A stretch of DNA of 64,000 nt, from NCBI GenBank assembly GCA_964412225.1, contig CAYPNB010000001.1, positions 75,656 to 139,655 of the forward strand, in the 5' to 3' direction. The stretch's first letter is position 1. Every line of letters starts with the position of its first letter. Positions 4,968-27,019 of this stretch are shown in pieces. The stretch is from an uncultured bacterium (lineage in GTDB: Bacteria; Hydrothermota; Tepidihabitantia; Tepidihabitantales; Tepidihabitantaceae). Below the pieces are notes generated by a model that did no database searches, was not told where the DNA came from, and saw only the letters and a list, made by a program, of their open reading frames with translations. A program made the position numbers and the translations under genes.

Positions 4968-4968
4968 T

Positions 4969-5985: not shown

Positions 5986-5988
5986 ACG

Positions 5989-6828: not shown

Positions 6829-6863
6829 AAAGTGAGTCCGATTTGTTATCATTTGTGTCTTTT

Positions 6864-7253: not shown

Positions 7254-8107
7254 GATACCCTTATTATCCCGGATGTACTCTTTATTCCAAGGCCCGGAAT
7301 CTTGACCGGTGTGGGCGCCGGGCGATGGCGACGCTCGGGGTGGAACTGGCAGAGATGTCTTCCTGGAACTGCTGCGGGGCGATTTACAACACCGGCAGCG
7401 ACGACCTGGCCGGCCAGGTCGGTCCAATCCGGAATCTGGCCAAGGCCAGTCAGGAGGGAGAAAAACTGGTTACGCTGTGCGCCGCCTGCCACAACGTGCT
7501 GAAACGGGCACAGGAGCGGTTTTTTGCCCAGGGGAATGAACAGGAGCGACAGCGGCTGATTGATTTTCTTGATGAACCTTTTACCCGGCCGGTGACGGTT
7601 GTTCACTACCTTGAGGTCCTGAAGGAGGATTTAGGCTGGGCGGCGATTAAGGAGCGGGTGCAGCAGCCTTTGGGTTTGAAGGTTGCCTCTTATTACGGTT
7701 GTTTGATGGTCCGGCCCCGGGAGGTTTTGAAGTTTGACGATCCGGATAACCCGCAGGTGATGGACGAACTGATGGGGGTTCTTGGTGCCGAGCCGGTGCG
7801 GTTTGATTTTAAGACCGAGTGTTGTGGTGGTTATCTGGTGGTGAACCGGCGGGCGGTGGCGGTTGAGTGCTCGCGGCGGATTTTAGACAATGCCCGTTCG
7901 TGGGGGGCGGAGGTAATTGTCACCACCTGTCCGTTGTGTCAGTACAACCTGGAAATTGCTCAGCGGGGGCAGGGCCCGGTTATGCCGGTATTTTATTTTA
8001 CCCAGTTATTGGGTCTGGCACTGGGTTTGGCACCGGTTGAACTGGGGTTTGAGGACAATAAACTTGACCCGGTGCCGTTTCTGAAGGAGAAAGGGTTAAT
8101 TAAATGA
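7250..8107 (+). CDS. hdrB: Heterodisulfide reductase subunit B (two CCG domains)
   Basis: ATGA overlap with hdrC. N-terminal YYPGC...NCCG and C-terminal YYGCLMV...CCGG...TTCPLCQYNL Cys-rich CCG domains. Confidence 0.85.
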   Translation: MRYPYYPGCTLYSKARNLDRCGRRAMATLGVELAEMSSWNCCGAIYNTGSDDLAGQVGPIRNLAKASQEGEKLVTLCAACHNVLKRAQERFFAQGNEQERQRLIDFLDEPFTRPVTVVHYLEVLKEDLGWAAIKERVQQPLGLKVASYYGCLMVRPREVLKFDDPDNPQVMDELMGVLGAEPVRFDFKTECCGGYLVVNRRAVAVECSRRILDNARSWGAEVIVTTCPLCQYNLEIAQRGQGPVMPVFYFTQLLGLALGLAPVELGFEDNKLDPVPFLKEKGLIK

Positions 8108-10098
8108 GCGCGGAGAATCCAGTTCTGGTTAACGAAGAGCGGCGGGCGGCGGGCGGTAAGCGGAAACTGGGTGTTTTTATCTGCCACTGCGGAATAAACA
8201 TTGCCGGTGTGGTTAAGGTTCCCGAACTGGTGGAAAGGGTAAAGAAGATTTCCGGGGTGGCGAGCGTTAAGGATTATGTTTACTGCTGTTCCGATCCCGG
8301 GCAGAAGATTATTCGCGATACAATTAAGTCGGAAGGGCTGGAGGGGGTGGTTGTAGCCTGCTGTTCCCCCACTCTCCACGAGGCGACATTCCGGCGGGCA
8401 GCGACTGAGGCGGGGCTGAACCCATATCTCTGTGAAATTGCCAATATTCGGGAGCAGTGCTCCTGGGTTACCGCGGACCGGGACGCGGCAACCGCCAAGG
8501 CAGAGGGCATTATTGCCACCATGCTTGCCAAGGTTGCCCGGGACCAGCCGCTGGAACGGTTGCGGGTTCCGATTGTGAAGCGGTGTCTGGTGGTGGGGGC
8601 GGGGATTGCCGGTATTCAGGCGGCTCTGGATGTGGCAAATGCGGGTTATGAGGTGGTGCTGGTGGAGAAGGAGCCGTCAATTGGCGGGCACATGGCACAA
8701 CTGTCCGAGACTTTCCCGACGCTTGATTGTTCGCAGTGTATTCTGACACCCAGGACGGTTGAGGCGGGTCGCCATCCGAGAATTAAACTTTTGACCTACT
8801 CAGAGGTGGCGGAGGTCAGCGGTTTTGTTGGCAATTTCCGGGTGAAGATAAAACAGAAACCCCGGTACGTTGACATTGACGCCTGCACCGGATGCGGGAT
8901 CTGTCTGGAGAAATGCCCGGTGCGGGTAGCGTCGGGTTTTGACCGGCAGCTGACCAGGCGCCGGGCGATCTACCGGTTGTTTCCCCAGGCGGTGCCGAAT
9001 AAGGTGGTGATTGATGCCGAGAGCTGCCGCCAGTTACAGGGTAAGAAGTGCGGGGTCTGTGCCAAGGTCTGTCCGGCGAATGCGATCCGTTATGATGACC
9101 AGGAGCGTTTTATTGAGGAGGAGGTGGGTGCAATTGTGCTCGCCACCGGTTATGAACTGTTTGACATCAGTCGGGTTGGCGCTTACGGTGCCGGCGTTGT
9201 TCCCGACGTGATTGATGGGCTGGCGTTTGAGCGAATTCTCTCGGCATCAGGTCCTTTTGCCGGTGAGGTGCGGCGGCCCTCGGACGGCAAGGTGCCGAAG
9301 CGGGTGGTGTTTGTTCAGTGCGCGGGTTCTCGGGACAGCAATCAAGGGGTGCCGTACTGTTCCAAGATTTGCTGTATGTATACCGCCAAACACGCGTTGC
9401 TGTACAAGCACCGGGTGCACGACGGCGAGGCGATTGTTTGCTATATTGATGTGCGGACACCGGGGAAGGGGTTTGAGGAGTTTTATCGGCGGGCAACTGA
9501 CGAAGGGGTGCAGTATCTTCGCGGTAAGGTGTCTAAAATTTTCCGCCGGGGGGATCGGGTGGTGGTTTGGGCAGCGGACACCCTGGCGGGCAAAAAACTG
9601 GAGATTGAAGCGGATATGGTGGTGCTGGCGAGTGCGGTTATCCCCAATCCCAGGGGGATAGAACTGGCACGACGGTTAAAAGTCGGCGTTGACGCCAACG
9701 GGTTCCAGTCCGAGGCACATCCGAAACTGCGACCGGTGGAGACGCTTACCGCCGGGTTTTTCCTCGCGGGATGCGGTCAGGGACCAAAGGACATTCCTGA
9801 AACGGTGGCGCAGGCTTCCGGGGCGGCGGCGAAGGTGCTGGCTTTGTTTGGAAATGAAGAGATGGAGCATGAACCGGTAATCGCTCAGGTTGATGAGGAT
9901 GTTTGTGTCGGTTGTGGCAACTGCGAGCGGACCTGTGCCTATGAGGCGGTAAAGGTTGACCCCCGGCGGGGTAAGGCGATAGTGCAAAAGGCGATGTGTG
10001 AAGGGTGCGGGGCGTGTGCGGTTGCCTGTCCTTCCGGGGCGATGAATCTGACCAACTTTACCAAAAAGGCACTTGTTGAAATGGTGGATGTGGATTGA
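8104..10098 (+). CDS. hdrA: Heterodisulfide reductase subunit A (FAD, multiple FeS)
   Basis: 664 aa with an ATGA overlap to hdrB. It has the VFICHCGINIAG thioredoxin-like/MvhD-binding module, a GAGIAGIQAALD FAD motif, an inserted CTGCGICLEKCP ferredoxin, a CAGSRD...YCSKICC stretch, and a C-terminal CVGCGNCERTCAY...CEGCGACAVACP 2x[4Fe-4S]. Confidence 0.9.
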   Translation: MSAENPVLVNEERRAAGGKRKLGVFICHCGINIAGVVKVPELVERVKKISGVASVKDYVYCCSDPGQKIIRDTIKSEGLEGVVVACCSPTLHEATFRRAATEAGLNPYLCEIANIREQCSWVTADRDAATAKAEGIIATMLAKVARDQPLERLRVPIVKRCLVVGAGIAGIQAALDVANAGYEVVLVEKEPSIGGHMAQLSETFPTLDCSQCILTPRTVEAGRHPRIKLLTYSEVAEVSGFVGNFRVKIKQKPRYVDIDACTGCGICLEKCPVRVASGFDRQLTRRRAIYRLFPQAVPNKVVIDAESCRQLQGKKCGVCAKVCPANAIRYDDQERFIEEEVGAIVLATGYELFDISRVGAYGAGVVPDVIDGLAFERILSASGPFAGEVRRPSDGKVPKRVVFVQCAGSRDSNQGVPYCSKICCMYTAKHALLYKHRVHDGEAIVCYIDVRTPGKGFEEFYRRATDEGVQYLRGKVSKIFRRGDRVVVWAADTLAGKKLEIEADMVVLASAVIPNPRGIELARRLKVGVDANGFQSEAHPKLRPVETLTAGFFLAGCGQGPKDIPETVAQASGAAAKVLALFGNEEMEHEPVIAQVDEDVCVGCGNCERTCAYEAVKVDPRRGKAIVQKAMCEGCGACAVACPSGAMNLTNFTKKALVEMVDVD

Positions 10099-13000
10099 GT
10101 ATGGCGCCGAATCAGGGAAGCAACAACAATAACAAAGTTGGGGCGGTTTTAGTTGTCGGAGCGGGGATCGCCGGCATTCAGGCGTCACTGGAGATGGCAG
10201 AGGCGGGGTTTAAGGTCTACCTGGTGGACAGGTCGCCGGCAATTGGTGGGGTAATGGCGATGCTGGACAAAACATTTCCCACCAATGACTGTTCAATGTG
10301 CATCCTGGCGCCGAAACTGGTGGGCACGGGGCGGCATCCGAACATTGAAATTATAAACGGTGCTGAACTGACCGGACTGGAGGGAGAACCGGGTAATTTT
10401 ACAGTCCGCATCCGGCGTCAGCCGCGCTATGTATTGCTGGATAAATGCACCGGCTGTCTTGATTGCACCAAGGTATGCCCGGTGGCGGTGCCCGATACCT
10501 ATAATCAGGGGCTTTCGTCCCGCCGGGCGGTTTACAAACTGTTTGCTCAGGCGATTCCGAATGCGGTGGCGATTGACAAAAACGAACACCGGGCACCCTG
10601 CCGGCTTGCCTGTCCGGCGGGTGTTAACGCCCAGGGTTATGTGGCGCTGATCCGGGAGCGGAAGTTTAAGGAGGGGTATGAACTGGTCCGCCAGCGGTTG
10701 CCGTTTGTGGGTGTCTGCGGTCGGGTTTGTCATCATCCCTGCGAGCAACAGTGTAACCGTAAGGATGTGGATGAACCGGTGGCGATTCGGACCCTGAAGC
10801 GGTTTCTTGCCGACTGGGTTCAGGAAAACGGGCCGTTGCCATACCCGGCGCCAGCGCCGGAAAACGGGAGGCGGGTGGCGGTGATAGGAGCCGGTCCGGC
10901 CGGGTTAACCTGTGCCCTTGATTTGCGGCTTAAGGGGTACTCGGTGACGGTGTTTGAAGCCGGCGAGGCGCCCGGTGGGATGATGCGCTGGGGTATACCG
11001 GCTTACCGTCTGCCCCGGAAGGTACTGGATGAGGAAATTAAGGCGATTCTTGATACTGGTGTGGAGTTGAAGTTAAACAGCCCGGTTACCAGCACCGCCG
11101 ATTTGAAGCAATTACTGGCGGGTGGATATCAGGCGGTGTTTGTGGCGGTGGGCTGTTCCCGGAGCCGGCGGCTGGAGGTTCCAGGGGTGGAACTGGCCGG
11201 TGTTTTGCCCGGGATTGAATTTCTCCGGCGGGTGAACGGCGGCGAGCAGGGAATTTTAACCGGTCAGCGGGTGGTGGTGATCGGCGGTGGCAATGTGGCG
11301 GTGGATTGCGCCCTTTGTGCCCGGCGGTCTGGTGCGGTTGAGGTAACAATGGTCTGTCTGGAGCGCCGGGAGGAGATGCCGGCGCACGAGTGGGAGATTG
11401 CCGAGGCGCTGGCAGAAGGGGTTAAGATTATGCCCTCCTGGGGGCCGAAGGTGATTACCGGGGATAACGGTCGGGTTACCGGTCTGGAGACCGTTTTCTG
11501 CGTTCGGGTATTTGACGAAAGCGGCCGGTTTAATCCTCAGTTTGACCAGGGGAAAACCGGTTTTGTGCCGGCGGATGCGGTCATTATTGCCATCGGGCAG
11601 GAGGTGGCGGGCGATGGTTTTGACGGCGTTGAGCGGGGCCGGCTGGGGACATTTAAAGTTGACCCGGTAACCCTGGCGGTACCGGGGATGCCCGGGATTT
11701 TTGCCGGCGGTGATGGCGTGCGGGGTCCGGCATCGGTGATTGAGGCGGTGGCGGATGGGCATGAGGCGGCGCTATCAATTGACCGATTTCTCAGGGGTGA
11801 GAACCTGGCTACGGCAAGGCCAGAGCCGAAGCCGGAGCCGGCAAGGTTAGAAGAAAGCGCGCGCGCCCGGAGTGGTATCGGCAAAGAGGCCCGCCGGCCC
11901 GAGCCGGTTCTGGCGGTGGAAAAACGGCAGGATAATTTTGCTGAGATCAATTTGGGTTTTGACGAAGAAACCGCGGTCAGTGAAGCCCGCCGTTGTCTGG
12001 ACTGCGGGGTGTGTTCGGAGTGTTTTCAGTGTGTTGCGGCGTGCGAAGCCAGGGCGATTGACCACAGCGAGACCCCCCGGGAACTGAACCTGCAGGTGGG
12101 AGCGGTTGTGCTGGCAGGCGGTTTCCGGGAGTATAAGCCGATAGATTCCGAATGGGGCTATCGTGATTCGCCGAATGTGGTTACCAGTTTGGAGTTTGAA
12201 CGGATTTTGTCGGCGACCGGTCCTTATGAGGGTCATGTGCGCCGACCCGGGGATGGGAAACAGCCGAAAAAGATTGCCTGGGTGCAGTGTGTTGGTTCCC
12301 GGAGCCAGGAGCACTACTACTGCTCGTCGGTGTGCTGTATGTTTGCCACCAAAGAGGCGGTGATCGCCAAGGAGCATTGTGCCGGCGACCTGGAGTGCCA
12401 CGTTTACTATATGGACATGCGCTGTTTTGGCAAGGGGTTTGAGCGGTATTACGAACGGGCAAGGGATGAATACGGCGTGGTCTTCCGGCGGTGCCGGGTG
12501 GCCAAGATTGTACCGGAGAATGGGGGTTGCGAAAACCCGTCCGGTAACCTGGTGGTCAGTTACGAAAACGAGAACGGCGAACTCCAGGAAGAGGTTTATG
12601 ATATGGTGGTGCTTTCCAGCGCCCTGACCGCTGACCCGGATTACGCCCGGCTATGCGCTTCCATCAAGGTGGATGTTGACGAACAGGGTTTTGTCCGCAC
12701 CGACCAGTTTTATCCGGTGGCGACATCGCGGCCCGGGGTGTTTGCCTGCGGTGCCTTAGTGGAACCCAAGGACATTCCGGAAACAGTGACCGAGGCGACC
12801 GGTTGTGCGGGTGCAGTGGCGAGTCTACTTGCCGAAGCCCGTAACACGCTGGTGAAGAAAAAGGAGTACCCACCAGAACGGGACGTCAGTGCTGAGGAGC
12901 CCCGGGTTGGTGTCTTTGTCTGTAATTGCGGGATAAATATCGGCGGGGTTGTCACCGTCCCGTCAGTAGTGGAGTTCGCCCGGACCCTGCCCGGTGTGGT

Positions 13001-14576
13001 TTATGCCGAGGAGAACCTTTTCACCTGTTCTCAGGACACCCAGGAGAAAATCCGCCGGGTGATTGTGGAGCAGAAACTCAACCGGGTGGTGGTTGCCTCC
13101 TGTACCCCCCGGACCCATGAGCCGCTTTTCCAGGAGACAATGCGGGAGGCGGGGCTCAACCCCTATCTGTTCACGATGGCGAATATCCGGGACCAGTGTT
13201 CCTGGGTTCATATGCAGTTGCCGAATGAGGCGACCGAAAAGGCAAAGGAGCTGGTACGGATGGCGGTGGCAAATGCCTGTCGGTTAAAACCGCTTTCCTG
13301 TTCGTCCCAACCCATTGTTCAGAAGGCGCTGGTTATCGGCGGTGGGCTTGCTGGTATGACCACCGCACTTGCCATTGCCGACCAGGGTTTTGAGGTGTTC
13401 CTGGTGGAAAAGGCAGCGGAACTGGGCGGAAAGTTGCGTCGGGTCCGATACAATCAGCGGGGTGAACGGATTGATGAGTTTCTGTCCGCTTTGGAACGGC
13501 GGGTTCGTACCCATTCCAACATTAGGGTTTTCACGGGTAGTGAGGTGAGGGCGGTATCGGGTTATGTCGGGAACTATCTGAGCCGGGTGGAAAGGGTTGA
13601 TGGTAGTGATGTTCAGGATATCAAACACGGGGTTTTTGTGGTGGCGGTTGGGGCCGAGGAGTATCGCCCGAAAGATTTCTTCTACGGCGAAGACGAAAGG
13701 GTAATGACCCAGTTGGAACTGGAACAGATACTTACCACTCAGCCCGAACGGTTAGCCGGGGTGAAGAGTGTGGCAATGATTCAGTGCGTTGGTTCCCGGG
13801 ATGCCGAACATCCGTACTGTTCCAGAATCTGCTGTACCGAGGCGATAAAAAATGCCTTGCACCTGAAAAAAGAGAATCCGAAACGGCAGGTTTATGTTTT
13901 CTACCGGGACATTCGCACCTACGGGTTTAAAGAGGCGCTGTATCAGGAGGCAAGACAGGCGGGGGTGATATTTATCCGGTTTGACCCGGATGTGCCGGAG
14001 CGGGCTTTAAGCTGGGAGAGGCGTAATGGTAAACTCCACGTCGCCACATTTGACCCGGTGCTTGGCAGACGGGTAGGGGTGGATGCTGACCTTCTGGTGC
14101 TTTCCGCGGGTGTGGTGCCAACGCCAGCACACCGGGAACTGGCACAGCTGTTAAAGGTGCCATTAAATGAAGACGGTTTCTTCCTTGAGGCGCATATGAA
14201 ACTCCGGCCGGTTGATTTCAATACCGCCGGGGTGTTTATGGCGGGGCTTTGTCACAGCCCCCGGTTGATGGATGAAACGATTGCCCAGGCGTTAGCAGCG
14301 GCGGCTCGTGCCGGTGCGGTGATCAGTCAAACTGAGATTATGACCCAGGCGGTGGTGGCGCGAGTTAACCAGCGCTGGTGCGCGGGTTGCGGGGTATGTG
14401 AAAACGTCTGTCAGTATGAGGCGGTGCATCTAAACCCGGCGACCGGGAAAAGTGAGGTTACCGCGGTGCTCTGCCAGGGGTGCGGTGCCTGTGCCGCTGC
14501 CTGTCCCGCCAGTGCGATTGAACTGCAGGGGTTTGAGTCAAAACAGTTATTGGCAATGATAGAAGCGGCACTATGA
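10095..14576 (+). CDS. HdrL-like giant HdrA-family protein with an inserted GltD-like NAD(P)H oxidoreductase domain and a second HdrA-like FAD domain
   Basis: 1493 aa. An HdrA-type N-terminal FAD half (VVGAGIAGIQASL, CTGCLDCTKVCP) is followed by a GltD-like segment (CPAGVNAQGY...VAVIGAGPAGLTCALDL...VVVIGGGNVAVDCA). Then come the remainder of the HdrA fold (CVGSRSQEHYYCSSVCC), a CNCGINIGG module, a second FAD domain (LVIGGGLAGMTTALA) and a C-terminal 2x[4Fe-4S]. It overlaps the hdrA stop. Confidence 0.85.
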   Translation: MSMAPNQGSNNNNKVGAVLVVGAGIAGIQASLEMAEAGFKVYLVDRSPAIGGVMAMLDKTFPTNDCSMCILAPKLVGTGRHPNIEIINGAELTGLEGEPGNFTVRIRRQPRYVLLDKCTGCLDCTKVCPVAVPDTYNQGLSSRRAVYKLFAQAIPNAVAIDKNEHRAPCRLACPAGVNAQGYVALIRERKFKEGYELVRQRLPFVGVCGRVCHHPCEQQCNRKDVDEPVAIRTLKRFLADWVQENGPLPYPAPAPENGRRVAVIGAGPAGLTCALDLRLKGYSVTVFEAGEAPGGMMRWGIPAYRLPRKVLDEEIKAILDTGVELKLNSPVTSTADLKQLLAGGYQAVFVAVGCSRSRRLEVPGVELAGVLPGIEFLRRVNGGEQGILTGQRVVVIGGGNVAVDCALCARRSGAVEVTMVCLERREEMPAHEWEIAEALAEGVKIMPSWGPKVITGDNGRVTGLETVFCVRVFDESGRFNPQFDQGKTGFVPADAVIIAIGQEVAGDGFDGVERGRLGTFKVDPVTLAVPGMPGIFAGGDGVRGPASVIEAVADGHEAALSIDRFLRGENLATARPEPKPEPARLEESARARSGIGKEARRPEPVLAVEKRQDNFAEINLGFDEETAVSEARRCLDCGVCSECFQCVAACEARAIDHSETPRELNLQVGAVVLAGGFREYKPIDSEWGYRDSPNVVTSLEFERILSATGPYEGHVRRPGDGKQPKKIAWVQCVGSRSQEHYYCSSVCCMFATKEAVIAKEHCAGDLECHVYYMDMRCFGKGFERYYERARDEYGVVFRRCRVAKIVPENGGCENPSGNLVVSYENENGELQEEVYDMVVLSSALTADPDYARLCASIKVDVDEQGFVRTDQFYPVATSRPGVFACGALVEPKDIPETVTEATGCAGAVASLLAEARNTLVKKKEYPPERDVSAEEPRVGVFVCNCGINIGGVVTVPSVVEFARTLPGVVYAEENLFTCSQDTQEKIRRVIVEQKLNRVVVASCTPRTHEPLFQETMREAGLNPYLFTMANIRDQCSWVHMQLPNEATEKAKELVRMAVANACRLKPLSCSSQPIVQKALVIGGGLAGMTTALAIADQGFEVFLVEKAAELGGKLRRVRYNQRGERIDEFLSALERRVRTHSNIRVFTGSEVRAVSGYVGNYLSRVERVDGSDVQDIKHGVFVVAVGAEEYRPKDFFYGEDERVMTQLELEQILTTQPERLAGVKSVAMIQCVGSRDAEHPYCSRICCTEAIKNALHLKKENPKRQVYVFYRDIRTYGFKEALYQEARQAGVIFIRFDPDVPERALSWERRNGKLHVATFDPVLGRRVGVDADLLVLSAGVVPTPAHRELAQLLKVPLNEDGFFLEAHMKLRPVDFNTAGVFMAGLCHSPRLMDETIAQALAAAARAGAVISQTEIMTQAVVARVNQRWCAGCGVCENVCQYEAVHLNPATGKSEVTAVLCQGCGACAAACPASAIELQGFESKQLLAMIEAAL

Positions 14577-14596
14577 GTGGAAAGTGAGGTGTCATT

Positions 14597-15016
14597 ATGA
14601 ACTACGAGCCCCGGATAGTCGGATTTTTATGTAACTGGTGTACCTATGCCGGTGCGGATCTTGCCGGTACTTCCCGAATTCAGTATCCCCCGAATATGCG
14701 GCCAATCAGAGTTATGTGTTCGGGTGCGGTGGACTCGGTTTATATCCTGCGGGCATTGCTGGAGGGGGCGGACGGGGTGTTTATCGGTGGCTGTCATCCG
14801 GGTGATTGTCATTATGTCTCGGGGAATTACAAAACCCGGCGGCGGATGGTGCTGTTCAATGCGATCATGCGGTCGTTGGGACTTGATGACGGACGGGTGT
14901 TGCTGCGCTGGATTTCGGCGGCGGAAGGCAAAAAGTTTGCCGAGACGATAACCACAATGACCGAGGAGCTCCGCCAGAAAGGCCCGAGTCCGTTCCGCAG
15001 TCTCTGGGAGGTGTAG
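14597..15016 (+). CDS. mvhD: MvhD-like protein (second copy)
   Basis: FLCNWCTYAGADLAG, MCSGAVD and GCHPGDCHY motifs, paralogous to 3703-4137. A GAGGTG RBS lies 8 nt upstream. Confidence 0.85.
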   Translation: MNYEPRIVGFLCNWCTYAGADLAGTSRIQYPPNMRPIRVMCSGAVDSVYILRALLEGADGVFIGGCHPGDCHYVSGNYKTRRRMVLFNAIMRSLGLDDGRVLLRWISAAEGKKFAETITTMTEELRQKGPSPFRSLWEV

Positions 15017-15017
15017 G

Positions 15018-16148
15018 GTGGCAAAGATGGGAGTGTTCAAAGTTGACGACCACAATCCGGAACAGACGCTCCGGGATGTTTGCGCTCGCTGGCTCAAAGA
15101 AGAAAAACTTTCGGCGATTTTAGTTCCGGCGGTCTCCCCGCTCGGGGTTGTTGCTCCAGCGCTCGTCACCACACCGGAAGCGGTTAAACGGATCGCCCCT
15201 CTTTGTCCGGCGATGTCGGTAAACGGTGCCAATATTTTAATGGAAATTGCCCAGCATCCGGCGGCACCGGAAACCAGGGTCGGGCTGATGCTCCGACCGT
15301 GCGAACTCCGGGCGGTGGTGGAACTGGTGAAACTGAAACAGATAGCGCTGGACAATTTGATTTTAATCGGCATTGATTGTCCCGGGACTTATAAGGTGTC
15401 AGTATACAATCAGTTAAGCCAGAGTGATCCGGAGTTTAACAGCCGGTTTGTCAAAAGTCAGGGAGGGTATTTAAATGACGAGCGTTTACGGAGCGCCTGC
15501 CAGATGTGTGAGTTTCCCACACCGTTAGTGGCGGACCTGGCGATCGGCTTTTTGGGAATGGATCCAGCAAAGGAGATTTTCTTTGAAGCGGCAACCGCTA
15601 AAGGTGAGACACTTTTAGACGGGTTTGCCTTAGATTCCGTTGGTGAGGTACCGGCGGCGCGCCGGGAGTACCTGGCGGCGTTTCGCCGGGGACGGGAGGA
15701 GAAGGCGGCACAGCTCATCGCCCAGTTTGAACAGGTGGCGCTGGGACCGGAAAATTTATTGCGCTATTTTGCCAACTGCCTCAACTGCCACAACTGTATG
15801 CATGTCTGCCCGGTTTGCTACTGCCGGGAGTGTTTTTTTGAGTCGGAGGCGCTCAAGCGGGAGATGGATGAGACGGTGCGGCTGGCAAGACGCAAGGGTA
15901 TTTCCCGGATGCCCGCGGGGACGATGCTGTTTCATCTGACGAGGATGAATCACATGATGACGTCCTGTGTTCAGTGCGGGATCTGCGAGGAGTCCTGCCC
16001 GGTTCAGATCGGTTTGAGTGTACTCTTCAAGAAGGTATCTCGTGCTGCCCAGGCAGAATTTGCCTATCTATCCGGTCGGTCGCTGGAGGAGCCGCTGCCG
16101 CTGACCACCTTCCGTGAGGATGAGTTCCGGACTGTTGGTGAAGGGTAA
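15018..16148 (+). CDS. FlxC-like / FrhB-FdhB-family iron-sulfur protein (second copy)
   Basis: CLNCHNCMHVCPVCYCREC and CVQCGICEESCP ferredoxin motifs after an FrhB-like N-terminal domain. Paralog of 4134-4967. Confidence 0.7.
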   Translation: MAKMGVFKVDDHNPEQTLRDVCARWLKEEKLSAILVPAVSPLGVVAPALVTTPEAVKRIAPLCPAMSVNGANILMEIAQHPAAPETRVGLMLRPCELRAVVELVKLKQIALDNLILIGIDCPGTYKVSVYNQLSQSDPEFNSRFVKSQGGYLNDERLRSACQMCEFPTPLVADLAIGFLGMDPAKEIFFEAATAKGETLLDGFALDSVGEVPAARREYLAAFRRGREEKAAQLIAQFEQVALGPENLLRYFANCLNCHNCMHVCPVCYCRECFFESEALKREMDETVRLARRKGISRMPAGTMLFHLTRMNHMMTSCVQCGICEESCPVQIGLSVLFKKVSRAAQAEFAYLSGRSLEEPLPLTTFREDEFRTVGEG

Positions 16149-16150
16149 AA

Positions 16151-16828
16151 ATGGAAGAGATTTTACTTAACGAACTGGACGGCGATTTCAAGTATCGGAT
16201 CGCGGAGCGGATGGGTGACGCCAGTTTTCTCAACTGTTTTGCCTGCGGTTCCTGCACCGCTGCCTGCCCGGTGCGCCGTTTAGAGGAGAAATACAATCCC
16301 CGGCGGTTGGTGCGAATGGCAATTCTGGGGATGAAGGAGGAAGTTTACCGGTCGGAGTTTGTCTGGCTCTGTTCTTATCATTCTACCTGTCTTTACCGAT
16401 GCCCGCAGGGCGTTAACATCGGTGAGGTGTGTGCAACGGTGGTGAAGTTGAGTGCCGGTTGTCCGGCGCCCCAAAAGGAGAATGAGGCAAAGGTGGACCC
16501 GGCTTTTCGGCAGGAGGTTTTGAAACGGGTTCCCGGGGTTTCGGCCTGTTTTGTCTGTGGTAGTTGTACCGCCGTCTGTCCGGAGGCGCTGGTGGACACC
16601 GAGAAGGACCCCCGACGGTTTATCCGAAAGGTGAATTTAGGGTTGCGGGAGGCGGCGTTTGCCGATCAGTTCAAGGACGTCTGCGCTACCCATTTTAAGT
16701 GCGAGAGCCGGTGTCCCCAAGGGGTCAAAATCAGCCGGATAATGCAGGTGCTGAAAGAACTGGCGATGGAAGACGGCTATACCTATCCCGAGTCGCTCAA
16801 AATGCTGGAAAGGCGGGCGGATGAGTGA
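16151..16828 (+). CDS. Tandem-duplicated HdrC-like ferredoxin
   Basis: Two consecutive HdrC-like modules (CFACGSCTAACP...CLYRCPQGV and CFVCGSCTAVCP...CESRCPQGV) in 225 aa. No HdrB-like gene follows. Confidence 0.75.
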   Translation: MEEILLNELDGDFKYRIAERMGDASFLNCFACGSCTAACPVRRLEEKYNPRRLVRMAILGMKEEVYRSEFVWLCSYHSTCLYRCPQGVNIGEVCATVVKLSAGCPAPQKENEAKVDPAFRQEVLKRVPGVSACFVCGSCTAVCPEALVDTEKDPRRFIRKVNLGLREAAFADQFKDVCATHFKCESRCPQGVKISRIMQVLKELAMEDGYTYPESLKMLERRADE

Positions 16829-19800
16829 GGTGGGTTCGGTGAATGCGGCGCTGGTGGTTGGTGGTGGTGTTGGTGGGGTACAGGTGGCGCTGGACCTGGC
16901 GGATGCGGGGTTGAAGGTGTATCTGGTGGAGCGGGCGCCGGCGATCGGCGGGTATATGGCGATGCTGGACAAAACATTTCCCACCAATGACTGTTCAATG
17001 TGCATCCTATCACCGAAACTGGTTTCCTGTGCCCGGCATCCGAATGTTGAACTACTGACTTTGAGCGAGGTTCTTGAGGTCACTGGTGAGCCGGGTAACT
17101 TTCAGGTCCGGGTCCGGCGTTATGCCCGCTCGGTGGACATTGACCGTTGCACTGGTTGCGGCAGCTGTTTGGAAAAGTGTCCGGTTAAACTGCCCAACGA
17201 GTTTGAGGGCGGGCTTTCCCAGCGCCGGGCGATTTACCGGCTCTATGCACAAGCAGTACCCAATGCGCCGACAATTGACCGTAAGGTATGTCTCAAGTTC
17301 ACCAAAAACCGGTGCGGTAACTGCGAAAAGGTCTGTAAGGCAGGGGCGATTAATTACGCCGAAGAGGACCAGGAGATGGTACTCAATGTGGCGGCGGTTG
17401 TGCTGGCTACCGGCAGTGAGATCGTCAGCCCCCGGGTGCGGCAGGAGTTTGGTTATGGCCGGTTTCCCAATGTGGTAACCAGTCTGGAGTTTGAACGGAT
17501 TCTCTCGGCATCTGGTCCATTCGGGGGGCACATCCAACGCCCTGGTGACCGCAAGGAGCCAAAGAAAATTGCCTGGTTACAGTGTTTTGGTTCCCGGGAC
17601 GAGACGGTAAACAGGGGTTACTGTTCTTCGGTTTGCTGTATGTATGCGGTCAAGGAGGCGGTGATTGCCAAGGAGCATAGTCCAGAAGTTCAGCCGACCA
17701 TTTTTTATATGGACCTCCGTGCCTTTGGCAAGGACTTTGACCGTTATATTGAGCGGGCGGAAAAGCAGTACGGGGTGCGGCTGGTACCGGCAAGGGTGGC
17801 CGAGATTCGCGAAATACCCGAGACAAAAGATTTGGTTGTTCGCTATGCCACAGAAAAGGGACAGAGGACAGAGCGGTTTGATATGGTGGTATTGTCCGGC
17901 GGTTTTATTCCTCCAGAAGCGGTTCAACTTTTAGACCAGCGTCTGGGGGTCCAACTTAATCAATTTTCCTATCCACTTGTTGACGTCTTCGCCCCGGTCA
18001 ATACCACAAGGGCGGGTGTTTTTCTTGCCGGGAGCGATCAGGGACCAAAGGATATACCGGAGACGGTAACCCAGGCATCGGCGGCGGCGGCACAGGTTCT
18101 TTCCTGTTCCGGTGTTCCTGGTGCTGTGGCTAAAAAGGGTGATGGGTTCCGCAACGTTATCGGTGAGCCGCCGCGCATCGGTGTTTTTGTCTGTCACTGC
18201 GGAATAAACATCGGTGGGGTTGTCCGGGTGCCAGAGGTGGTGGAGTTTGCCCGTCAGTTACCTGGGGTGGTTTATGCTGAGGAAAACCTTTACTCCTGTT
18301 CCGCGGACAGCCTGGAGAAATTGAAATCCCGGATTGTGGAACAGAAACTTAACCGGGTGGTGGTTGCCTCCTGTTCACCCCGGACGCATGAACCGCTTTT
18401 CCAGGAGACGGTTGCGCAGGCGGGGCTGAACCCCCATCTCTTTGCGATGACCAACATCCGGGACCAGTGTTCCTGGGTGCACATGCAGCTGCCGGATGAG
18501 GCAACTGAAAAGGCGAAGGATCTGGTGGGGATGGCGGTCGCGCGGGTCCGGCGGCAGGAACCGCTGGCGCCAGTTAAACTGCCGGTGACCAAGGCGGGTC
18601 TGGTGATCGGCGGCGGGATTAGCGGGATGAGCGCGGCATTGGCTTTAGCCGATGCGGGGTTTGAGGTGTTCCTGGTGGAACGGGAAAATGAATTGGGCGG
18701 CATGGCAAGGAAAATCTGGCGGACAGTTGAGGGCGAGGATGTGCCGAAACGACTCGCCGGGTTGATTGAACGGGTAAGCACCCATCCCCGAGTTCGGGTG
18801 TTCACCGGGGCACGCATCGCCAGAATTGAAGGGTTTGTGGGTTCATTTACCACCACGGTGCGTCATAACACCGACCGCGGTGAGGAGGAAACAGAACTCC
18901 GGCACGGGGTGGTGGTTCTTGCCACCGGCGCCCGTTATCGTCAGCCCACTGAGTACCATTACGGTGCCAGTCCCCGGGTGAAGACCCAACAGGAGCTGGA
19001 GGAGATTATCGCCCGTCAGCCAGAGGGTTTAGACGACGCCCGGCTGGTGGTGATGATTCAGTGTGTTGGTTCAAGGGAGGAGGAGCGTCCGTATTGTTCA
19101 AGAATTTGCTGTGTTGAGGCGTTGAAAAACGCCATCGCCATCAAGGAGAGAAACCCACAGACTGAGGTGTTTATTCTCTACCGTGATATTCGCGCCTACG
19201 GGTTGAAGGAAAAATTTTATCGCCGGGCGCGAGAGATGGGGGTTAATTTCATCCGCTACACGCCGGACCGCAAGCCCGCAGTGAGTGCGACAAAAGAGGG
19301 GGTGCAGGTCCGGGTTTATGAGCCGGTTATCGGCGAGGAACTGGAACTGGTTCCCGACCTTCTGGTTCTTTCCAGCGGGGTGGTGGCGAACCCGGATGCC
19401 GCCGAACTGGCACAGATGCTCAAAGTGCCATTGCATCAGGACGGCTTTTTCCTTGAGGCGCACGCCAAACTCCGGCCGGTTGACTTTGCCACCGAAGGGG
19501 TGTTTCTATGCGGGCTCTGCCACTATCCCAAATTCATTGATGAGGCTATCGCCTCGGCGCAGGCGGCGGCGGGACGGGCGGTAACGGTCCTCGCCCGGGA
19601 GTTTATTGAGGGTGAACCCTATCAGGCGGTGGTTAACCCGCAACGTTGCTCTGCCTGCCGGATGTGTGAAACCCTCTGTGCCTACCGGGCGATTGAGGTA
19701 AAACTGATTGATGAACGTCAGGGCAGGTTTGCGGCGGTAGTTAACGCGGCGTTGTGCAAAGGGTGCGGTGCCTGTGCGGCGAACTGTCGGTCCCAGGCAA

Positions 19801-19910
19801 TAGATATTAAGGGGTTTGCCAGCGACAATATTGTCCGGGAACTCAACTCCCTTCTTAACCTGCCGTCCGCTGCCAGCGGTGCCGAACGCAAGGCCGCGGT
19901 GGGCGGATAG
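16821..19910 (+). CDS. Double HdrA-like fusion protein (HdrL paralog lacking the GltD insertion)
   Basis: 1029 aa. An N-terminal HdrA FAD domain with a ferredoxin insert (VVGGGVGGVQVAL, CTGCGSCLEKCP, CFGSRDE...YCSSVCC) is followed by a CHCGINIGG module, a second FAD domain (LVIGGGISGMSAALA) and a C-terminal ferredoxin. Long stretches are near-identical in protein sequence to the 12900-14576 part of the 1493-aa gene. Confidence 0.85.
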   Translation: MSEVGSVNAALVVGGGVGGVQVALDLADAGLKVYLVERAPAIGGYMAMLDKTFPTNDCSMCILSPKLVSCARHPNVELLTLSEVLEVTGEPGNFQVRVRRYARSVDIDRCTGCGSCLEKCPVKLPNEFEGGLSQRRAIYRLYAQAVPNAPTIDRKVCLKFTKNRCGNCEKVCKAGAINYAEEDQEMVLNVAAVVLATGSEIVSPRVRQEFGYGRFPNVVTSLEFERILSASGPFGGHIQRPGDRKEPKKIAWLQCFGSRDETVNRGYCSSVCCMYAVKEAVIAKEHSPEVQPTIFYMDLRAFGKDFDRYIERAEKQYGVRLVPARVAEIREIPETKDLVVRYATEKGQRTERFDMVVLSGGFIPPEAVQLLDQRLGVQLNQFSYPLVDVFAPVNTTRAGVFLAGSDQGPKDIPETVTQASAAAAQVLSCSGVPGAVAKKGDGFRNVIGEPPRIGVFVCHCGINIGGVVRVPEVVEFARQLPGVVYAEENLYSCSADSLEKLKSRIVEQKLNRVVVASCSPRTHEPLFQETVAQAGLNPHLFAMTNIRDQCSWVHMQLPDEATEKAKDLVGMAVARVRRQEPLAPVKLPVTKAGLVIGGGISGMSAALALADAGFEVFLVERENELGGMARKIWRTVEGEDVPKRLAGLIERVSTHPRVRVFTGARIARIEGFVGSFTTTVRHNTDRGEEETELRHGVVVLATGARYRQPTEYHYGASPRVKTQQELEEIIARQPEGLDDARLVVMIQCVGSREEERPYCSRICCVEALKNAIAIKERNPQTEVFILYRDIRAYGLKEKFYRRAREMGVNFIRYTPDRKPAVSATKEGVQVRVYEPVIGEELELVPDLLVLSSGVVANPDAAELAQMLKVPLHQDGFFLEAHAKLRPVDFATEGVFLCGLCHYPKFIDEAIASAQAAAGRAVTVLAREFIEGEPYQAVVNPQRCSACRMCETLCAYRAIEVKLIDERQGRFAAVVNAALCKGCGACAANCRSQAIDIKGFASDNIVRELNSLLNLPSAASGAERKAAVGG

Positions 19911-19928
19911 CGGTCGGTCAGTAGCACC

Positions 19929-26902: not shown

Positions 26903-27019
26903 CGGTTGATATTAACCCGCCCCCGGTAGGAGTCAAGGAAAATTCTTGACAGGCCGGGGCGGGAAAATACAATTTGGTTGCAGGAAAATCAGGAGTGGCA
27001 GCGGTAGACCGGTAGCCGG

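What the first reader, a model, noticed from the sequence alone, without database searches (positions are those of the whole stretch)
16821..19910. Double-HdrA fusion gene is a close paralog of the C-terminal two-thirds of HdrL (segmental duplication within the operon)
Long stretches are nearly identical at the protein level between the two genes. One example is ...GVFVCNCGINIGGVVTVPSVVEFARTLPGVVYAEENLFTCSQDTQEKIRRVIVEQKLNRVVVASCTPRTHEPLFQETMREAGLNPYLFTMANIRDQCSWVHMQLPNEATEKAKELV... against ...GVFVCHCGINIGGVVRVPEVVEFARQLPGVVYAEENLYSCSADSLEKLKSRIVEQKLNRVVVASCSPRTHEPLFQETVAQAGLNPHLFAMTNIRDQCSWVHMQLPDEATEKAKDLV.... The downstream FAD and ferredoxin domains match similarly. This indicates a relatively recent intra-operon duplication, with the GltD insert present in only one copy. 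Such repeats are also an assembly hazard.
Basis: seen in the sequence. Interest (0 to 1): 0.5.

Follow-up and report, generated by a model that had tools for sequence, protein, structure and literature searches.

The report
Ancient paralogous fused HdrA genes
The two big redox-enzyme genes in this operon are real relatives of each other, but they separated long ago and both are conserved side by side in related bacteria, so this is an ordinary old gene family and neither a recent duplication nor an assembly problem.

Summary
The ORF 16821-19910 (1029 aa) is a fused "double HdrA". It is collinear with the whole of HdrL (10101-14576), not only its C-terminal two-thirds. The one exception is a ~477-aa NfnB/GltD-like insert present in HdrL alone. 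The quoted peptides are correct: 81% identity over 116 aa.

The pair is not close. Overall identity is 53.6% at protein level and ~60% at nucleotide level, with 45% at third codon positions. More than 100 orthologue clusters of each gene (56-78% identity) are closer than the in-operon paralogue.

In trees, the WOR-3 HdrA2 and HdrL clades are each monophyletic (100/100). The window pair is never sister (0/100). The same gene order recurs in four other WOR-3 assemblies (three organisms), one a closed genome.

The conserved stretch is the HdrA N-terminal Fe-S domain, which is also 58-59% identical to an archaeal HdrA.

Each protein is a single-chain pseudo-heterodimer of two complementary HdrA halves. 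These are known "type II" and "HdrL/type III" HdrA forms.

The only recent exchange is a 53-nt exact tract at the Cys197 motif, probably a short gene conversion.

Interest is low: new members of known kinds.

The parts
16821..19910 (+). hdrA2: fused 'type II' double HdrA, 1029 aa. Half 1 is aa 1-445 and half 2 is aa 446-1029.
   Evidence: ORF. Pfam. PDB HdrA 5ODC_A E 6e-203 in three collinear pieces: query 3-342 = HdrA 139-473, 449-620 = 2-173, 830-1009 = 471-647. AF2 pLDDT 82.9, pTM 0.85. Foldseek top hits are all HdrA.
10101..14576 (+). hdrL: the same fused double-HdrA architecture plus an NfnB/GltD-like insert. 1491 aa from ATG 10101; the listed ORF starts at TTG 10095.
   Evidence: The NCBI product P0121 is 1491 aa.
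10584..12014 (+). NfnB/GltD-like NAD(P)H-FAD-2[4Fe-4S] module. It is inserted between the two cluster motifs of the inserted ferredoxin domain of half 1 and is absent from hdrA2.
   Evidence: Gap in BLASTP collinearity: L164-640 has no counterpart. Pfam Fer4_20 and Pyr_redox_2. NfnB 5JCA_L E 2.4e-70 and GltD 6S6S_G E 4e-60. Rossmann motifs GAGPAG at aa 263 and GGGNVA at aa 395.
18180..18527 (+).
   Evidence: 81% aa identity to the hdrL copy, 59% to M. thermolithotrophicus HdrA residues ~7-122, and 47% to the window's own HdrA. DNA is 82% identical over 234 nt, 18332-18565 against 13061-13294.
12909..13256 (+).
16956..17008 (+). 53-nt tract exactly identical to 10254-10306. It encodes MAMLDKTFPTNDCSMCI(L), the loop carrying Cys194 and Cys197. 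Probable short gene-conversion tract.
   Evidence: Exact identity. 0 of 2000 codon-resampling simulations reach 53 nt; simulated mean 17, maximum 36. It uses the rare codons ACA 13%, TCA 11% and CCC 23%; the product of codon homozygosities is 4e-6. Orthologues of the closest relative differ at 5-6 synonymous sites here.
10254..10306 (+). Partner copy of the 53-nt identical tract, in hdrL.
14597..15016 (+). mvhD2 (FlpD family). Belongs to the HdrL module.
   Evidence: Pfam FlpD E 2e-52. 83% and 72% identical to the mvhD that follows hdrL in L001 and L002.
15018..16148 (+). 376-aa FrhB/FdhB_C-like Fe-S protein. Belongs to the HdrL module.
   Evidence: Pfam. Orthologues follow hdrL-mvhD in L001 (56%) and L002 (46%).
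16151..16828 (+). 225-aa protein with two HdrC-like 4Fe-4S dicluster domains. It overlaps the hdrA2 start by 8 nt.
   Evidence: Pfam Fer4_17 and Fer4_8, two stretches. Orthologue in L002. Gaps.
3703..4137 (+). mvhD1 (FlxD-like). Paralogue of mvhD2 (58%). Assigned to the HdrA2 module.
   Evidence: Pfam FlpD. BLASTP. 76% and 71% identical to the mvhD that follows hdrA2 in Bathyarchaeota L003 and Aerophobetes L002.
4134..4967 (+). 277-aa Fe-S protein. Distant paralogue of the 376-aa protein (25%, E 2e-24). Assigned to the HdrA2 module.
   Evidence: 37-39% identical to the gene after hdrA2-mvhD in L003 and L002.
4942..5985 (+). 347-aa Fer4_22 Fe-S protein (sulfhydrogenase-beta, AsrA or FlxB/C-like).
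   Evidence: Pfam Fer4_22 E 4e-31. 37% identical to the L003 gene downstream of hdrA2.
5989..6828 (+). 279-aa PyrK, NfnA or FlxA-like NAD(P)H-flavin-[2Fe-2S] protein.
   Evidence: Pfam NAD_binding_1 and DHODB_Fe-S_bind. 54% identical to the L003 counterpart.
6768..10098 (+). Canonical hdrC (6768-7253; the true start is probably later), hdrB (7250-8107, two CCG domains) and hdrA (8104-10098, 664 aa, type I).
   Evidence: Pfam. Alignment to 5ODC HdrA with all cluster cysteines kept.

Best explanation
hdrA2 (16821-19910) and hdrL (10101-14576) are anciently diverged paralogues of one protein architecture, a fused 'type II' HdrA.

Architecture:
- Each polypeptide is a single-chain pseudo-heterodimer of two complementary HdrA units.
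- Half 1 has the FAD/thioredoxin-reductase-like domain, the Cys194/Cys197 loop and the inserted ferredoxin domain. [quoted passage not shown] It lacks Cys197 and the inserted ferredoxin domain.
- HdrL differs only by an NfnB/GltD-like NAD(P)H-FAD module spliced into the inserted ferredoxin domain.

Evolution:
- Each paralogue heads its own set of partner genes, and these partners are also paralogous. The HdrL set is mvhD2, a 376-aa FrhB_C-like protein and a 225-aa Fe-S protein. The HdrA2 set is mvhD1, a 277-aa Fe-S protein, a Fer4_22 protein and a PyrK/FlxA-like protein.
- So an old module-level duplication, or a merger of related modules, is real. It predates the radiation of the sampled WOR-3 lineage, and the arrangement is inherited.
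- The striking local protein identity is purifying selection on cofactor-binding domains.
- The one sign of recent exchange is a 53-nt identical tract at the Cys197 motif, best read as a short gene conversion.

Function (inferred, not shown): together with HdrABC, the 12 redox genes of the 13-gene operon (all but archease) encode soluble flavin-based electron-bifurcating or confurcating complexes of the Flx/HdrL-Hdr type. These would link NAD(P)H (entering through the HdrL insert and the FlxA-like protein), ferredoxin and a disulfide reduced at HdrB.
For: Divergence:
- 53.6% aa, 59.7% nt and 45.5% third-position identity over 1000 codons. blastn gives 63-68%, and megablast finds only one 144-nt hit.

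Orthologues closer than the paralogue:
- More than 110 clusters at 56-77% identity for A2, and about 55 at 65-78% for HdrL.
- Many A2 and HdrL hits report the same longest-contig length, suggesting they share contigs. Co-location was confirmed directly in six loci.

Phylogeny:
- NJ bootstrap gives WOR-3 A2 clade 100, WOR-3 L clade 100 and window pair sister 0.
- The result is the same in each of four protein regions, at 94-100.
- Paralogue identity is 52-53% in all four WOR-3 genomes.

Synteny: hdrC-hdrB-hdrA-hdrL-mvhD-376aa-225aa-hdrA2 is conserved in L004, L005, L006 and the closed genome L001. The core hdrL-mvhD-FeS-FeS-hdrA2 is also present in Aerophobetes L002.

Domain map:
- PDB 5ODC_A alignments and the cysteine table.
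- E356, K409 and Cys386/399/403/404 are kept in all four halves.
- Cys194/197 and the inserted-ferredoxin cysteines occur only in half 1. The N-domain cysteines and eight C-terminal ferredoxin cysteines occur only in half 2.

Structure: AF2 pTM 0.85 indicates one compact fold. Foldseek top hits are HdrA.

Module paralogy and orthology.

Conversion tract. Similar exact tracts between neighbouring fused hdrA genes occur in 13 other loci, four of them covering this motif.

Literature:
- Fused HdrA with Cys197/N-domain complementarity, and a ~500-aa NfnB insert in the ferredoxin domain: PMC9012536.
- Type II and type III HdrA classes: PMC12054007.
- HdrL: PMC2702500.
- HdrABC/HdrL in S. fumaroxidans: PMC5947623.
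Against: - The trees are neighbour-joining on simple distances, not maximum likelihood.
- At deeper levels, presence of the insert is not monophyletic. L_P0112 groups with Bathyarchaeota A2-type proteins (87/100), and the Aerophobetes pair are sisters (88/100, but that pair carries a 458-nt conversion tract). The number and place of duplication and insertion events is therefore unresolved.
- No reads were available, so the assembly was checked only by comparison with independent assemblies of relatives.
- The functional model rests on homology and gene order. No type II or type III HdrA complex of this kind has been characterised biochemically (PMC12054007), and the substrate of HdrB in WOR-3 is unknown.
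- The 53-nt tract could in principle reflect nucleotide-level selection rather than conversion.
Confidence: 0.85

Rival explanations
1. Recent intra-operon segmental duplication. Here hdrA2 arose lately from hdrL, or the reverse, followed by loss or gain of the GltD insert.
For: Local stretches of 80-82% aa identity and 82% nt identity over 234 nt. A 53-nt exact match.
Against: - Overall 60% nt identity and third positions at 45%, against 28% expected by chance.
- More than 100 orthologue clusters of each copy are closer than the paralogue.
- Reciprocal monophyly at 100/100 and window pair sister at 0/100, in every region.
- Paralogue identity is the same 52-53% in four WOR-3 genomes.
Confidence: 0.01
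2. Assembly artefact: one of the two copies is a duplicated, collapsed or chimeric product of assembling a repeat.
For: None specific. The contig is from a metagenome-assembled genome, and a 53-nt exact repeat exists.
Against: - The copies are only ~60% identical in DNA, and both are intact ORFs with all cofactor motifs.
- The same two genes in the same order occur in four other WOR-3 assemblies (three organisms), including a closed 3.26-Mb genome, and in an Aerophobetes assembly.
Confidence: 0.01
3. Not an in-situ duplication at all. Two already distinct modules, each of which exists separately elsewhere, were brought together by operon fusion or horizontal transfer in an ancestor of WOR-3 and Aerophobetes. 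One is an HdrA2-MvhD-Flx-like module as in Bathyarchaeia, Asgard archaea and Clostridia. The other is an HdrL-MvhD-FeS module as in Desulfobacterota.
For: - The HdrA2 module occurs alone in Bathyarchaeota L003, and with Flx-like genes in many Asgard, Clostridia and Archaeoglobus loci.
- In WOR-3 its partner genes sit at the opposite end of the operon from hdrA2.
- The WOR-3 A2 clade does not group with the WOR-3 L clade in the NJ tree.
Against: - The two modules are adjacent and collinear in Aerophobetes (hdrL-mvhD-FeS-FeS-hdrA2-mvhD-FeS). This looks like a tandem repeat of a unit.
- The deep topology is not resolved by the NJ tree.
- This rival differs from the best explanation only in where the old duplication happened.
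Confidence: 0.3
4. The 53-nt identical tract is not gene conversion. Instead it reflects selection on the nucleotide sequence itself, through codon choice at invariant residues or an mRNA feature.
For: - The tract encodes the longest run of invariant residues in the family.
- The longest exact tract between co-located paralogues covers this motif in four other loci from different lineages: L001, L041, L051 and L025.
- The Ser codon TCA is shared by all six genes of the three closest genomes.
Against: - The shared codons differ between genomes (AAA-ACA-TTT-CCC..TGT-TCA in the window; AAG-ACC-TTC-CCG..TGC-TCG in L001), so no single sequence is preferred.
- The window uses rare codons.
- TGT at the first Cys is shared by both paralogues in the window, whereas both copies in L004, L006 and L001 have TGC; one copy in the more distant Aerophobetes L002 also has TGT.
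- Much longer identical tracts of 112-746 nt elsewhere show that conversion does occur in this family.
- No Rfam family matches there.
Confidence: 0.25

Closest known systems
Type II (fused, two thioredoxin-reductase-domain) HdrA: HdrA3/HdrA4 of ANME archaea and the HdrA of the Moorella thermoacetica MetFV-HdrABC-MvhD complex (PMC9012536; PMC12054007; 2 FAD per HdrA in PMC5861303)
   Same: - Two HdrA units in one chain, with E356 and K409 kept in both.
- One unit supplies the N-terminal Fe-S domain and the other supplies Cys197, so the chain can act as its own heterodimeric partner.
- Associated with mvhD and an FdhB/FrhB-like protein.
   Different: - Here the Cys197-bearing unit comes first and the N-domain-bearing unit second. 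The text of PMC9012536 gives the opposite order for ANME HdrA3/4. The A6+A12 fusion described in PMC12054007 fits the order seen here.
- Bacterial (WOR-3) host, with no molybdopterin or MetFV partner in the operon.
- No solved structure of a fused HdrA was found.
HdrL of Desulfobacterium autotrophicum and Syntrophobacter fumaroxidans (HdrABC/HdrL, Sfum_0819-0824), equivalent to type III 'A9-TRX-C' HdrA and ANME-1 HdrA9-11 with an NfnB-like insert
   Same: - A large HdrA-like protein with a GltD/NfnB NAD(P)H-binding module, followed by mvhD and an Fe-S protein and next to hdrABC.
- The insert interrupts the inserted ferredoxin domain, as described for ANME-1.
   Different: - This applies to the 10101-14576 gene, not to the gene of the finding, which lacks the insert.
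- No selenocysteine.
- The second Rossmann motif is GxGxxA (GGGNVA), whereas the archaeal type III inserts were reported as GxGxxG.
- An additional insert-free paralogue sits in the same operon.
MvhADG-HdrABC of methanogens (PDB 5ODC; Elp-Hdr 8RVU/8RVY; Fdh-Hdr-Fmd 7BKB)
   Same: Same fold and cofactor motifs (phmmer E 6e-203; Foldseek E 4e-54, 38% identity). The window also encodes a canonical type I HdrABC.
   Different: The canonical HdrA is a homodimer of 650-aa chains, each with all four domains. Here the dimer is fused and the redundant domains have been lost. No hydrogenase is encoded in this window.
FlxABCD-HdrABC (Flox-Hdr) NADH dehydrogenase/heterodisulfide reductase of Desulfovibrio and many anaerobes (Ramos et al. 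2015, cited in PMC5861303)
   Same: Domain-level match of the first seven genes: MvhD-like, two Fe-S proteins and a PyrK-like NAD(P)H flavoprotein, followed by hdrCBA.
   Different: Orthology to D. vulgaris Flx proteins was not tested. The gene order is reversed, and the operon carries two extra fused HdrA modules.

Membership tests
HdrA (FAD-containing electron-bifurcating subunit of soluble heterodisulfide reductase) | Thioredoxin-reductase-like FAD domain with a GxGxxG dinucleotide-binding motif | tested here: met
   GGGVGG at aa 14 and GGGISG at aa 597 in HdrA2. GAGIAG at aa 20 and GGGLAG at aa 1080 in HdrL. Pfam Pyr_redox_2 and FAD_oxidored.
HdrA (FAD-containing electron-bifurcating subunit of soluble heterodisulfide reductase) | Residues E356 and K409 (M. 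thermolithotrophicus numbering), held to be needed for flavin-based bifurcation (PMC12054007) | tested here: met
   Both are conserved in all four halves of HdrA2 and HdrL and in the window's type I HdrA.
HdrA (FAD-containing electron-bifurcating subunit of soluble heterodisulfide reductase) | [4Fe-4S] cluster of the TrxR-like domain (Cys386, 399, 403, 404) | tested here: met
   All four cysteines are present in all four halves.
HdrA (FAD-containing electron-bifurcating subunit of soluble heterodisulfide reductase) | Overall fold like solved HdrA | tested here: met
   AF2 model with pLDDT 82.9 and pTM 0.85. The Foldseek top 11 hits are HdrA chains, E down to 1e-54.
Type II (fused double) HdrA | Two TrxR-like FAD domains in one polypeptide | tested here: met
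Type II (fused double) HdrA | Complementary loss: one unit keeps the N-terminal Fe-S domain and lacks Cys197, the other keeps Cys197 and lacks the N-terminal domain | tested here: met
   Half 1 has Cys194/197 present and no N-domain. Half 2 has N-domain Cys11, 13, 46, 71 and 103 present, with V/I or a gap at positions 194 and 197. The order of units is Cys197-unit first.
Type II (fused double) HdrA | Phylogenetic placement of each half with the archaeal type II_N and type II_C clades | not tested
   The reference sequences of PMC12054007 were not available here. Homologues of 48-57% identity over full length do occur in Bathyarchaeia, Promethearchaeia, Thermoplasmatota and Archaeoglobus.
HdrL / type III (GltD- or NfnB-inserted) HdrA | NAD(P)H-binding GltD/NfnB-like module within the HdrA chain | tested here: not met
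   This row concerns the gene of the finding (16821-19910), where the module is absent. It is met for the partner gene 10101-14576: Fer4_20 and Pyr_redox_2, NfnB E 2e-70.
HdrL / type III (GltD- or NfnB-inserted) HdrA | Gene followed by mvhD and next to hdrABC | tested here: met
   hdrCBA-hdrL-mvhD2, as in Sfum_0819-0824.
Recent segmental duplication / repeat that endangers assembly | High nucleotide identity (roughly 90% or more) over most of the gene | tested here: not met
   59.7% over 1000 codons. 63% by blastn. The best local segment is 82% over 234 nt. The longest exact match is 53 nt.
Recent segmental duplication / repeat that endangers assembly | The two copies are each other's closest relatives | tested here: not met
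   Sister in 0/100 bootstrap trees, both overall and per region. Orthologues at 77-78% identity exist for each.
Recent segmental duplication / repeat that endangers assembly | Read-level evidence of collapse or mis-join | not testable with these tools
   No reads were available. Indirect evidence: the same arrangement appears in five other independent assemblies.
FlxABCD-HdrABC | PyrK-like NAD(P)H flavoprotein, two Fe-S proteins and an MvhD-like protein adjacent to hdrABC | tested here: met
   Domain level only: 3703-6828 followed by hdrCBA.
FlxABCD-HdrABC | Orthology to the D. vulgaris Flx proteins, and NADH-dependent activity | not tested
   No reference sequences or biochemistry were available.

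The most novel reading that the evidence does not exclude
The conserved WOR-3 operon (3703-19910) may encode one supercomplex with three different HdrA-type bifurcating units: type I HdrA, the fused HdrA2 and the NfnB-bearing HdrL. That would give five HdrA-type flavin sites, the NfnB-type flavin of the HdrL insert, and probably a flavin in the FlxA-like subunit. They would be wired through two MvhD proteins and perform cascaded or switchable bifurcation and confurcation among NADPH, NADH, ferredoxin and a disulfide. Recurrent short gene conversion at the Cys197 loop would keep the inter-unit Fe-S ligand compatible between paralogous subunits.
Probability: 0.15. Interest if true: 0.6.

Novelty: new member of a known kind. 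Interest (0 to 1): 0.2.

Why it matters
As a finding it mostly clears up a misreading. The repeat is old, conserved and harmless for assembly, and the similarity marks cofactor-binding domains.

The useful residue is threefold:
1. An annotation of the WOR-3 hdr operon, which describes the two large 'FAD-dependent oxidoreductase' genes as a type II HdrA and an HdrL/type III HdrA, each with its own MvhD module.
2. A cysteine and domain map showing that each is a single-chain pseudo-heterodimer.
3. A pointer to a cultured organism, Desulfotruncus alcoholivorax DSM 16058 (locus L038), that carries both fused HdrA types and both partner-gene sets within one 18-kb stretch. Fused and NfnB-inserted HdrAs have no biochemistry yet (PMC12054007), and they could be studied there.

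Tried and rejected
- The look-up of the exact contig of P0001 found nothing on record. A second assembly of the same organism could therefore not be inspected. A 1493-aa variant of HdrL on a 20.6-kb contig does exist.
- Structure prediction and Foldseek only confirmed the HdrA fold. Coordinates are not returned, so the distance from Cys197 to the N-domain cluster could not be measured.
- I considered codon bias, including accuracy-driven use of optimal codons, as the cause of the 53-nt match. I rejected it because the tract uses rare codons and simulations never reach it.
- I considered an RNA element and found no Rfam match in 10-20 kb.
- I considered that the quoted N-domain region (81% aa) might be an older conversion tract. 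I rejected this for the WOR-3 time-scale, because the two clades stay reciprocally monophyletic in that region (97 and 94/100, window pair 0/100).
- The scan of one genome per species was limited by its patterns and returned only three WOR-3 loci. The co-occurrence count (49/80 loci with two or more hdrA-type genes, 18/80 with an insert) is therefore descriptive, not a census.

Full report
**1. The observation**

The region 16821-19910 (+) is a single 1029-aa ORF. The partner gene is 10095/10101-14576 (+), giving 1493 or 1491 aa. They are A2 residues 454-569 and HdrL residues 939-1054, and they are 81% identical over 116 aa.

BLASTP aligns the two proteins collinearly in two blocks. HdrL 15-163 aligns with A2 7-155 at 60% identity. 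HdrL 641-1493 aligns with A2 163-1012 at 51% identity over 865 columns, E = 0. The 1029-aa protein therefore corresponds to the whole of HdrL minus an internal block of about 477 aa, not to its C-terminal two-thirds.

That block is an NfnB/GltD-like module. Pfam finds Fer4_20 and Pyr_redox_2. Among solved structures, NfnB 5JCA_L matches at E 2.4e-70 and GltD 6S6S_G at E 4e-60.

**2. How close are the copies?**

- A codon alignment of 1000 shared codons gives 53.6% amino-acid identity and 59.7% nucleotide identity.
- Third-position identity is 45.5%, against 28% expected from base composition alone.
- blastn finds 63-68% identity. megablast finds a single 144-nt hit at 85%.
- The repeat finder reports nothing better than 82% over 234 nt, 13061-13294 against 18332-18565.
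- The downstream FAD and ferredoxin part (A2 576-1012) is only 48% identical at protein level, so it does not 'match similarly'.

**3. Age of the split**

A database search with the 1029-aa protein returns more than 110 clusters of about 1005-1060 aa at 56-77% identity. They come from candidate division WOR-3, Bathyarchaeota, Chloroflexi and Aerophobetes. All are closer than the in-operon paralogue, and the first HdrL-length hit ranks 112th.

HdrL has about 55 full-length orthologue clusters at 65-78% identity, mostly from WOR-3.

A neighbour-joining tree was built from 22 insert-free and 23 insert-bearing proteins on 988 shared columns.
- It recovers a WOR-3 HdrA2 clade and a WOR-3 HdrL clade, each with 100/100 bootstrap support and with parallel internal topology.
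- The window pair is sister in 0/100 replicates.
- The same holds for each of four regions analysed separately, including the quoted N-domain region (97 and 94/100).
- Paralogue identity is 52-53% in all four WOR-3 genomes examined. Orthologues range from 64 to 80%.

The duplication therefore predates the radiation of this WOR-3 group.

At deeper levels the tree is unresolved. One insert-bearing protein groups with insert-free Bathyarchaeota proteins (87/100), and the Aerophobetes pair are sisters (88/100). I do not claim how often the insert was gained or lost.

**4. Both copies in related genomes**

The order hdrC-hdrB-hdrA-hdrL-mvhD-(375 aa)-(225 aa)-hdrA2 recurs in two assemblies of the closest relative (L004 and L005, 77% identity), on a 504-kb JGI contig (L006) and in a closed 3.26-Mb WOR-3 genome (CP070680.1, L001, 63%). 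In L004, L005 and L006 it is followed by archease, as in the window.

An Aerophobetes contig (L002) has hdrL-mvhD-FeS-FeS-hdrA2-mvhD-FeS.

This rules out an assembly artefact as far as can be done without reads.

A scan of one genome per species shows full-length fused HdrAs of 48-56% identity in many groups. These include Bathyarchaeia, Promethearchaeia, Thermoplasmatota, Methanomassiliicoccales, Archaeoglobus, Clostridia, Desulfobacterota, Nitrospirota and Armatimonadota. Of the 80 loci, 49 carry two or more hdrA-type genes within 10 kb and 18 carry a GltD-like insert.

**5. What the proteins are**

Alignment to the solved HdrA of Methanothermococcus thermolithotrophicus (5ODC_A, E 6e-203) maps the protein in three pieces:
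- A2 3-342 onto HdrA 139-473, the FAD domain plus the inserted ferredoxin domain.
- A2 449-620 onto HdrA 2-173, the N-terminal Fe-S domain plus the start of a second FAD domain.
- A2 830-1009 onto HdrA 471-647, the end of the FAD domain plus the C-terminal ferredoxin domain.

A cysteine-by-cysteine table gives the following:
- In both HdrA2 and HdrL, half 1 keeps Cys194/Cys197 and the eight cysteines of the inserted ferredoxin domain. It has no N-terminal domain and no C-terminal ferredoxin domain.
- Half 2 keeps the N-domain cysteines (11, 13, 46, 71, 103) and the eight C-terminal ferredoxin cysteines. It lacks Cys194/197 and the inserted ferredoxin domain.
- All four halves keep the FAD motif, E356, K409 and the Cys386/399/403/404 cluster.

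In the canonical enzyme, Cys197 of one HdrA ligates the N-domain cluster of the other (PMC9012536). Each fused protein is therefore best read as a single-chain pseudo-heterodimer.

An AlphaFold2 model of HdrA2 is confident as one body (pLDDT 82.9, pTM 0.85). It matches only single HdrA chains in the PDB, so no fused HdrA structure was found.

In HdrL the NfnB-like module splits the inserted ferredoxin domain. It has the Rossmann motifs GAGPAG (FAD) and GGGNVA (a GxGxxA, NADPH-type motif).

These architectures are already described:
- Fused HdrA3/4 in ANME archaea and in Moorella, and a 500-aa NfnB insert in ANME-1 HdrA9-11 (PMC9012536).
- 'Type II' HdrA and 'type III, A9-TRX-C' HdrA (PMC12054007).
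- HdrL (PMC2702500; PMC5947623).

**6. The operon and the real 'segmental' element**

Thirteen + strand genes from 3703 to 20354 are packed with gaps of -61 to +20 nt. In order they are mvhD1, a 277-aa Fe-S protein, a Fer4_22 protein, a PyrK/FlxA-like NAD(P)H flavoprotein, hdrC, hdrB, hdrA, hdrL, mvhD2, a 376-aa FrhB_C-like protein, a 225-aa double-HdrC-like protein, hdrA2 and archease.

The two MvhD proteins are 58% identical. The 277- and 376-aa proteins are distant paralogues (25%, E 2e-24).

Orthology places these genes in two groups:
- mvhD1, the 277-aa protein, Fer4_22 and the PyrK-like protein group with the genes that directly follow hdrA2 in Bathyarchaeota (L003) and Aerophobetes (L002).
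- mvhD2, the 376-aa protein and the 225-aa protein group with the genes that follow hdrL.

A module-level duplication of fused HdrA, MvhD and an FrhB_C-like protein therefore exists, but it is ancient. Whether it arose in place or by merging two related modules cannot be decided here.

**7. The only trace of recent exchange**

Positions 10254-10306 and 16956-17008 are identical over 53 nt. The tract encodes MAMLDKTFPTNDCSMCI(L), the Cys194/Cys197 loop.
- Resampling synonymous codons at identical residues never reaches 53 nt. The count is 0 of 2000, with a simulated mean of 17 and a maximum of 36.
- The tract uses rare codons: ACA 13%, TCA 11% and CCC 23%. The product of codon homozygosities is 4e-6.
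- Each gene differs from its orthologue in the closest relative at 5-6 synonymous sites here, yet the two paralogues do not differ from each other. At the first cysteine both window copies have TGT, whereas both copies in L004, L006 and L001 have TGC.

I infer a short gene-conversion tract.

The phenomenon is general. The same motif carries the longest exact match in L001 (49 nt), L041 (38 nt) and L051 (51 nt). Much longer identical tracts occur in L002 (458 nt), L025 (536 nt), L057 (746 nt), L042 (116 nt) and L058 (112 nt). Some of these may be assembly chimeras in metagenome-assembled genomes, which I could not check.

**8. How it most likely works (inferred)**

By homology with MvhADG-HdrABC and with the proposed Flx-Hdr and HdrABC/HdrL systems, the operon should encode soluble flavin-based electron-bifurcating or confurcating complexes.
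- NAD(P)H would enter through the NfnB-like insert of HdrL and through the FlxA-like protein.
- MvhD would pass electrons to the C-terminal ferredoxin domain of half 2.
- The HdrA flavins would split electron pairs between a low-potential branch and a high-potential branch.
- The low-potential branch runs through the N-domain cluster and the inserted ferredoxin domain to ferredoxin.
- The high-potential branch runs through the TrxR-domain cluster and HdrC to the HdrB CCG clusters, ending at a disulfide of unknown identity.

What is shown: the domain and ligand inventory, and the conserved gene order. What is not shown: subunit composition, substrates and direction.

**9. Verdict**

The paralogy, the fusion and the single-copy insert are right. 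The claims of a recent duplication, a match limited to the C-terminal two-thirds and an assembly hazard are wrong.

The genes are new members of known kinds, so interest is low. The points of some value are the module-level view of a conserved WOR-3 operon, the evidence for short gene conversion between old paralogues, and a cultured organism (Desulfotruncus alcoholivorax, L038) in which these uncharacterised HdrA types could be studied.

Noticed in passing
L002:1806-6266 and L002:8710-11742 (Aerophobetes JACUUP010000033.1); also L025, L057, L042, L058: Neighbouring fused hdrA paralogues share long exactly identical DNA tracts: 458 nt in L002, 536 nt in L025, 746 nt in L057, 116 nt in L042 and 112 nt in L058. 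The rest of each gene pair is ~55-60% identical. This is either real gene conversion or a chimeric MAG assembly.
   Followed up: partly
window 3703-4137 vs 14597-15016; 4134-4967 vs 15018-16148: The operon holds two further paralogous pairs. The MvhD proteins are 58% identical, and the 277-aa and 376-aa Fe-S proteins are 25% identical (E 2e-24). The duplicated unit was therefore a whole module (fused HdrA, MvhD and an Fe-S protein). The partners of hdrA2 sit at the far 5' end of the operon rather than after it, unlike in Bathyarchaeota and Aerophobetes.
   Followed up: yes
L001:13194-22430 (closed WOR-3 genome CP070680.1): In this relative hdrA2 is not followed by archease. It is followed by a second hdrC-hdrB, NuoE/NuoF/NuoG-like genes (2Fe-2S_thioredx, Complex1_51K, Fer2_4), a third mvhD and a [NiFe] hydrogenase small and large subunit. 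This links the module to H2 and NADH metabolism there.
   Followed up: no
L001:22495-23129 and L003:3057-3527, 16459-16869: GcvH-like (PF01597, lipoyl-carrier type) genes lie next to the hdr clusters in a WOR-3 and a Bathyarchaeota genome. This recalls the lipoate-binding proteins of sulfur-oxidiser sHdr systems. No such gene was seen among the window ORFs scanned with Pfam (most ORFs between 1 and 26 kb plus ten larger ones; the window was not scanned exhaustively).
   Followed up: no
window 57892-59426 (-): A complete 16S rRNA gene (Rfam 1493 bits) with no 23S rRNA match anywhere in the window. It is flanked by protein-coding ORFs, with GroEL at 59957-61600, so the rRNA genes appear to be unlinked.
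   Followed up: no
window 27016-27230 (+): A cobalamin riboswitch (77.8 bits) immediately upstream of a TonB-dependent receptor gene (27265-29385). This is the usual BtuB-type arrangement.
   Followed up: no
window 22098-23048 (-): A 315-aa protein combining a TackOD1 domain ('Thaumarchaeal output domain 1') with an Mrr-type restriction endonuclease domain. This is an unusual pairing in a bacterium and possibly defence-related.
   Followed up: no
window 10095-10101 and 6768-6866: Start-codon uncertainties. hdrL is listed from TTG 10095, but the NCBI product starts at ATG 10101 (1491 aa), and a 1493-aa variant exists in another assembly. The hdrC ORF as listed overlaps the preceding gene by 61 nt, so it probably starts later, at the Met of MSGAPDK.
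   Followed up: partly
L038 (Desulfotruncus alcoholivorax DSM 16058, NZ_AUMW01000036.1): A cultured Firmicute carries, within 18 kb, both fused HdrA types (one with the GltD-like insert), two mvhD genes and homologues of the 376-aa, 277-aa, Fer4_22 and PyrK-like proteins. It is a tractable organism for biochemistry of this system.
   Followed up: partly
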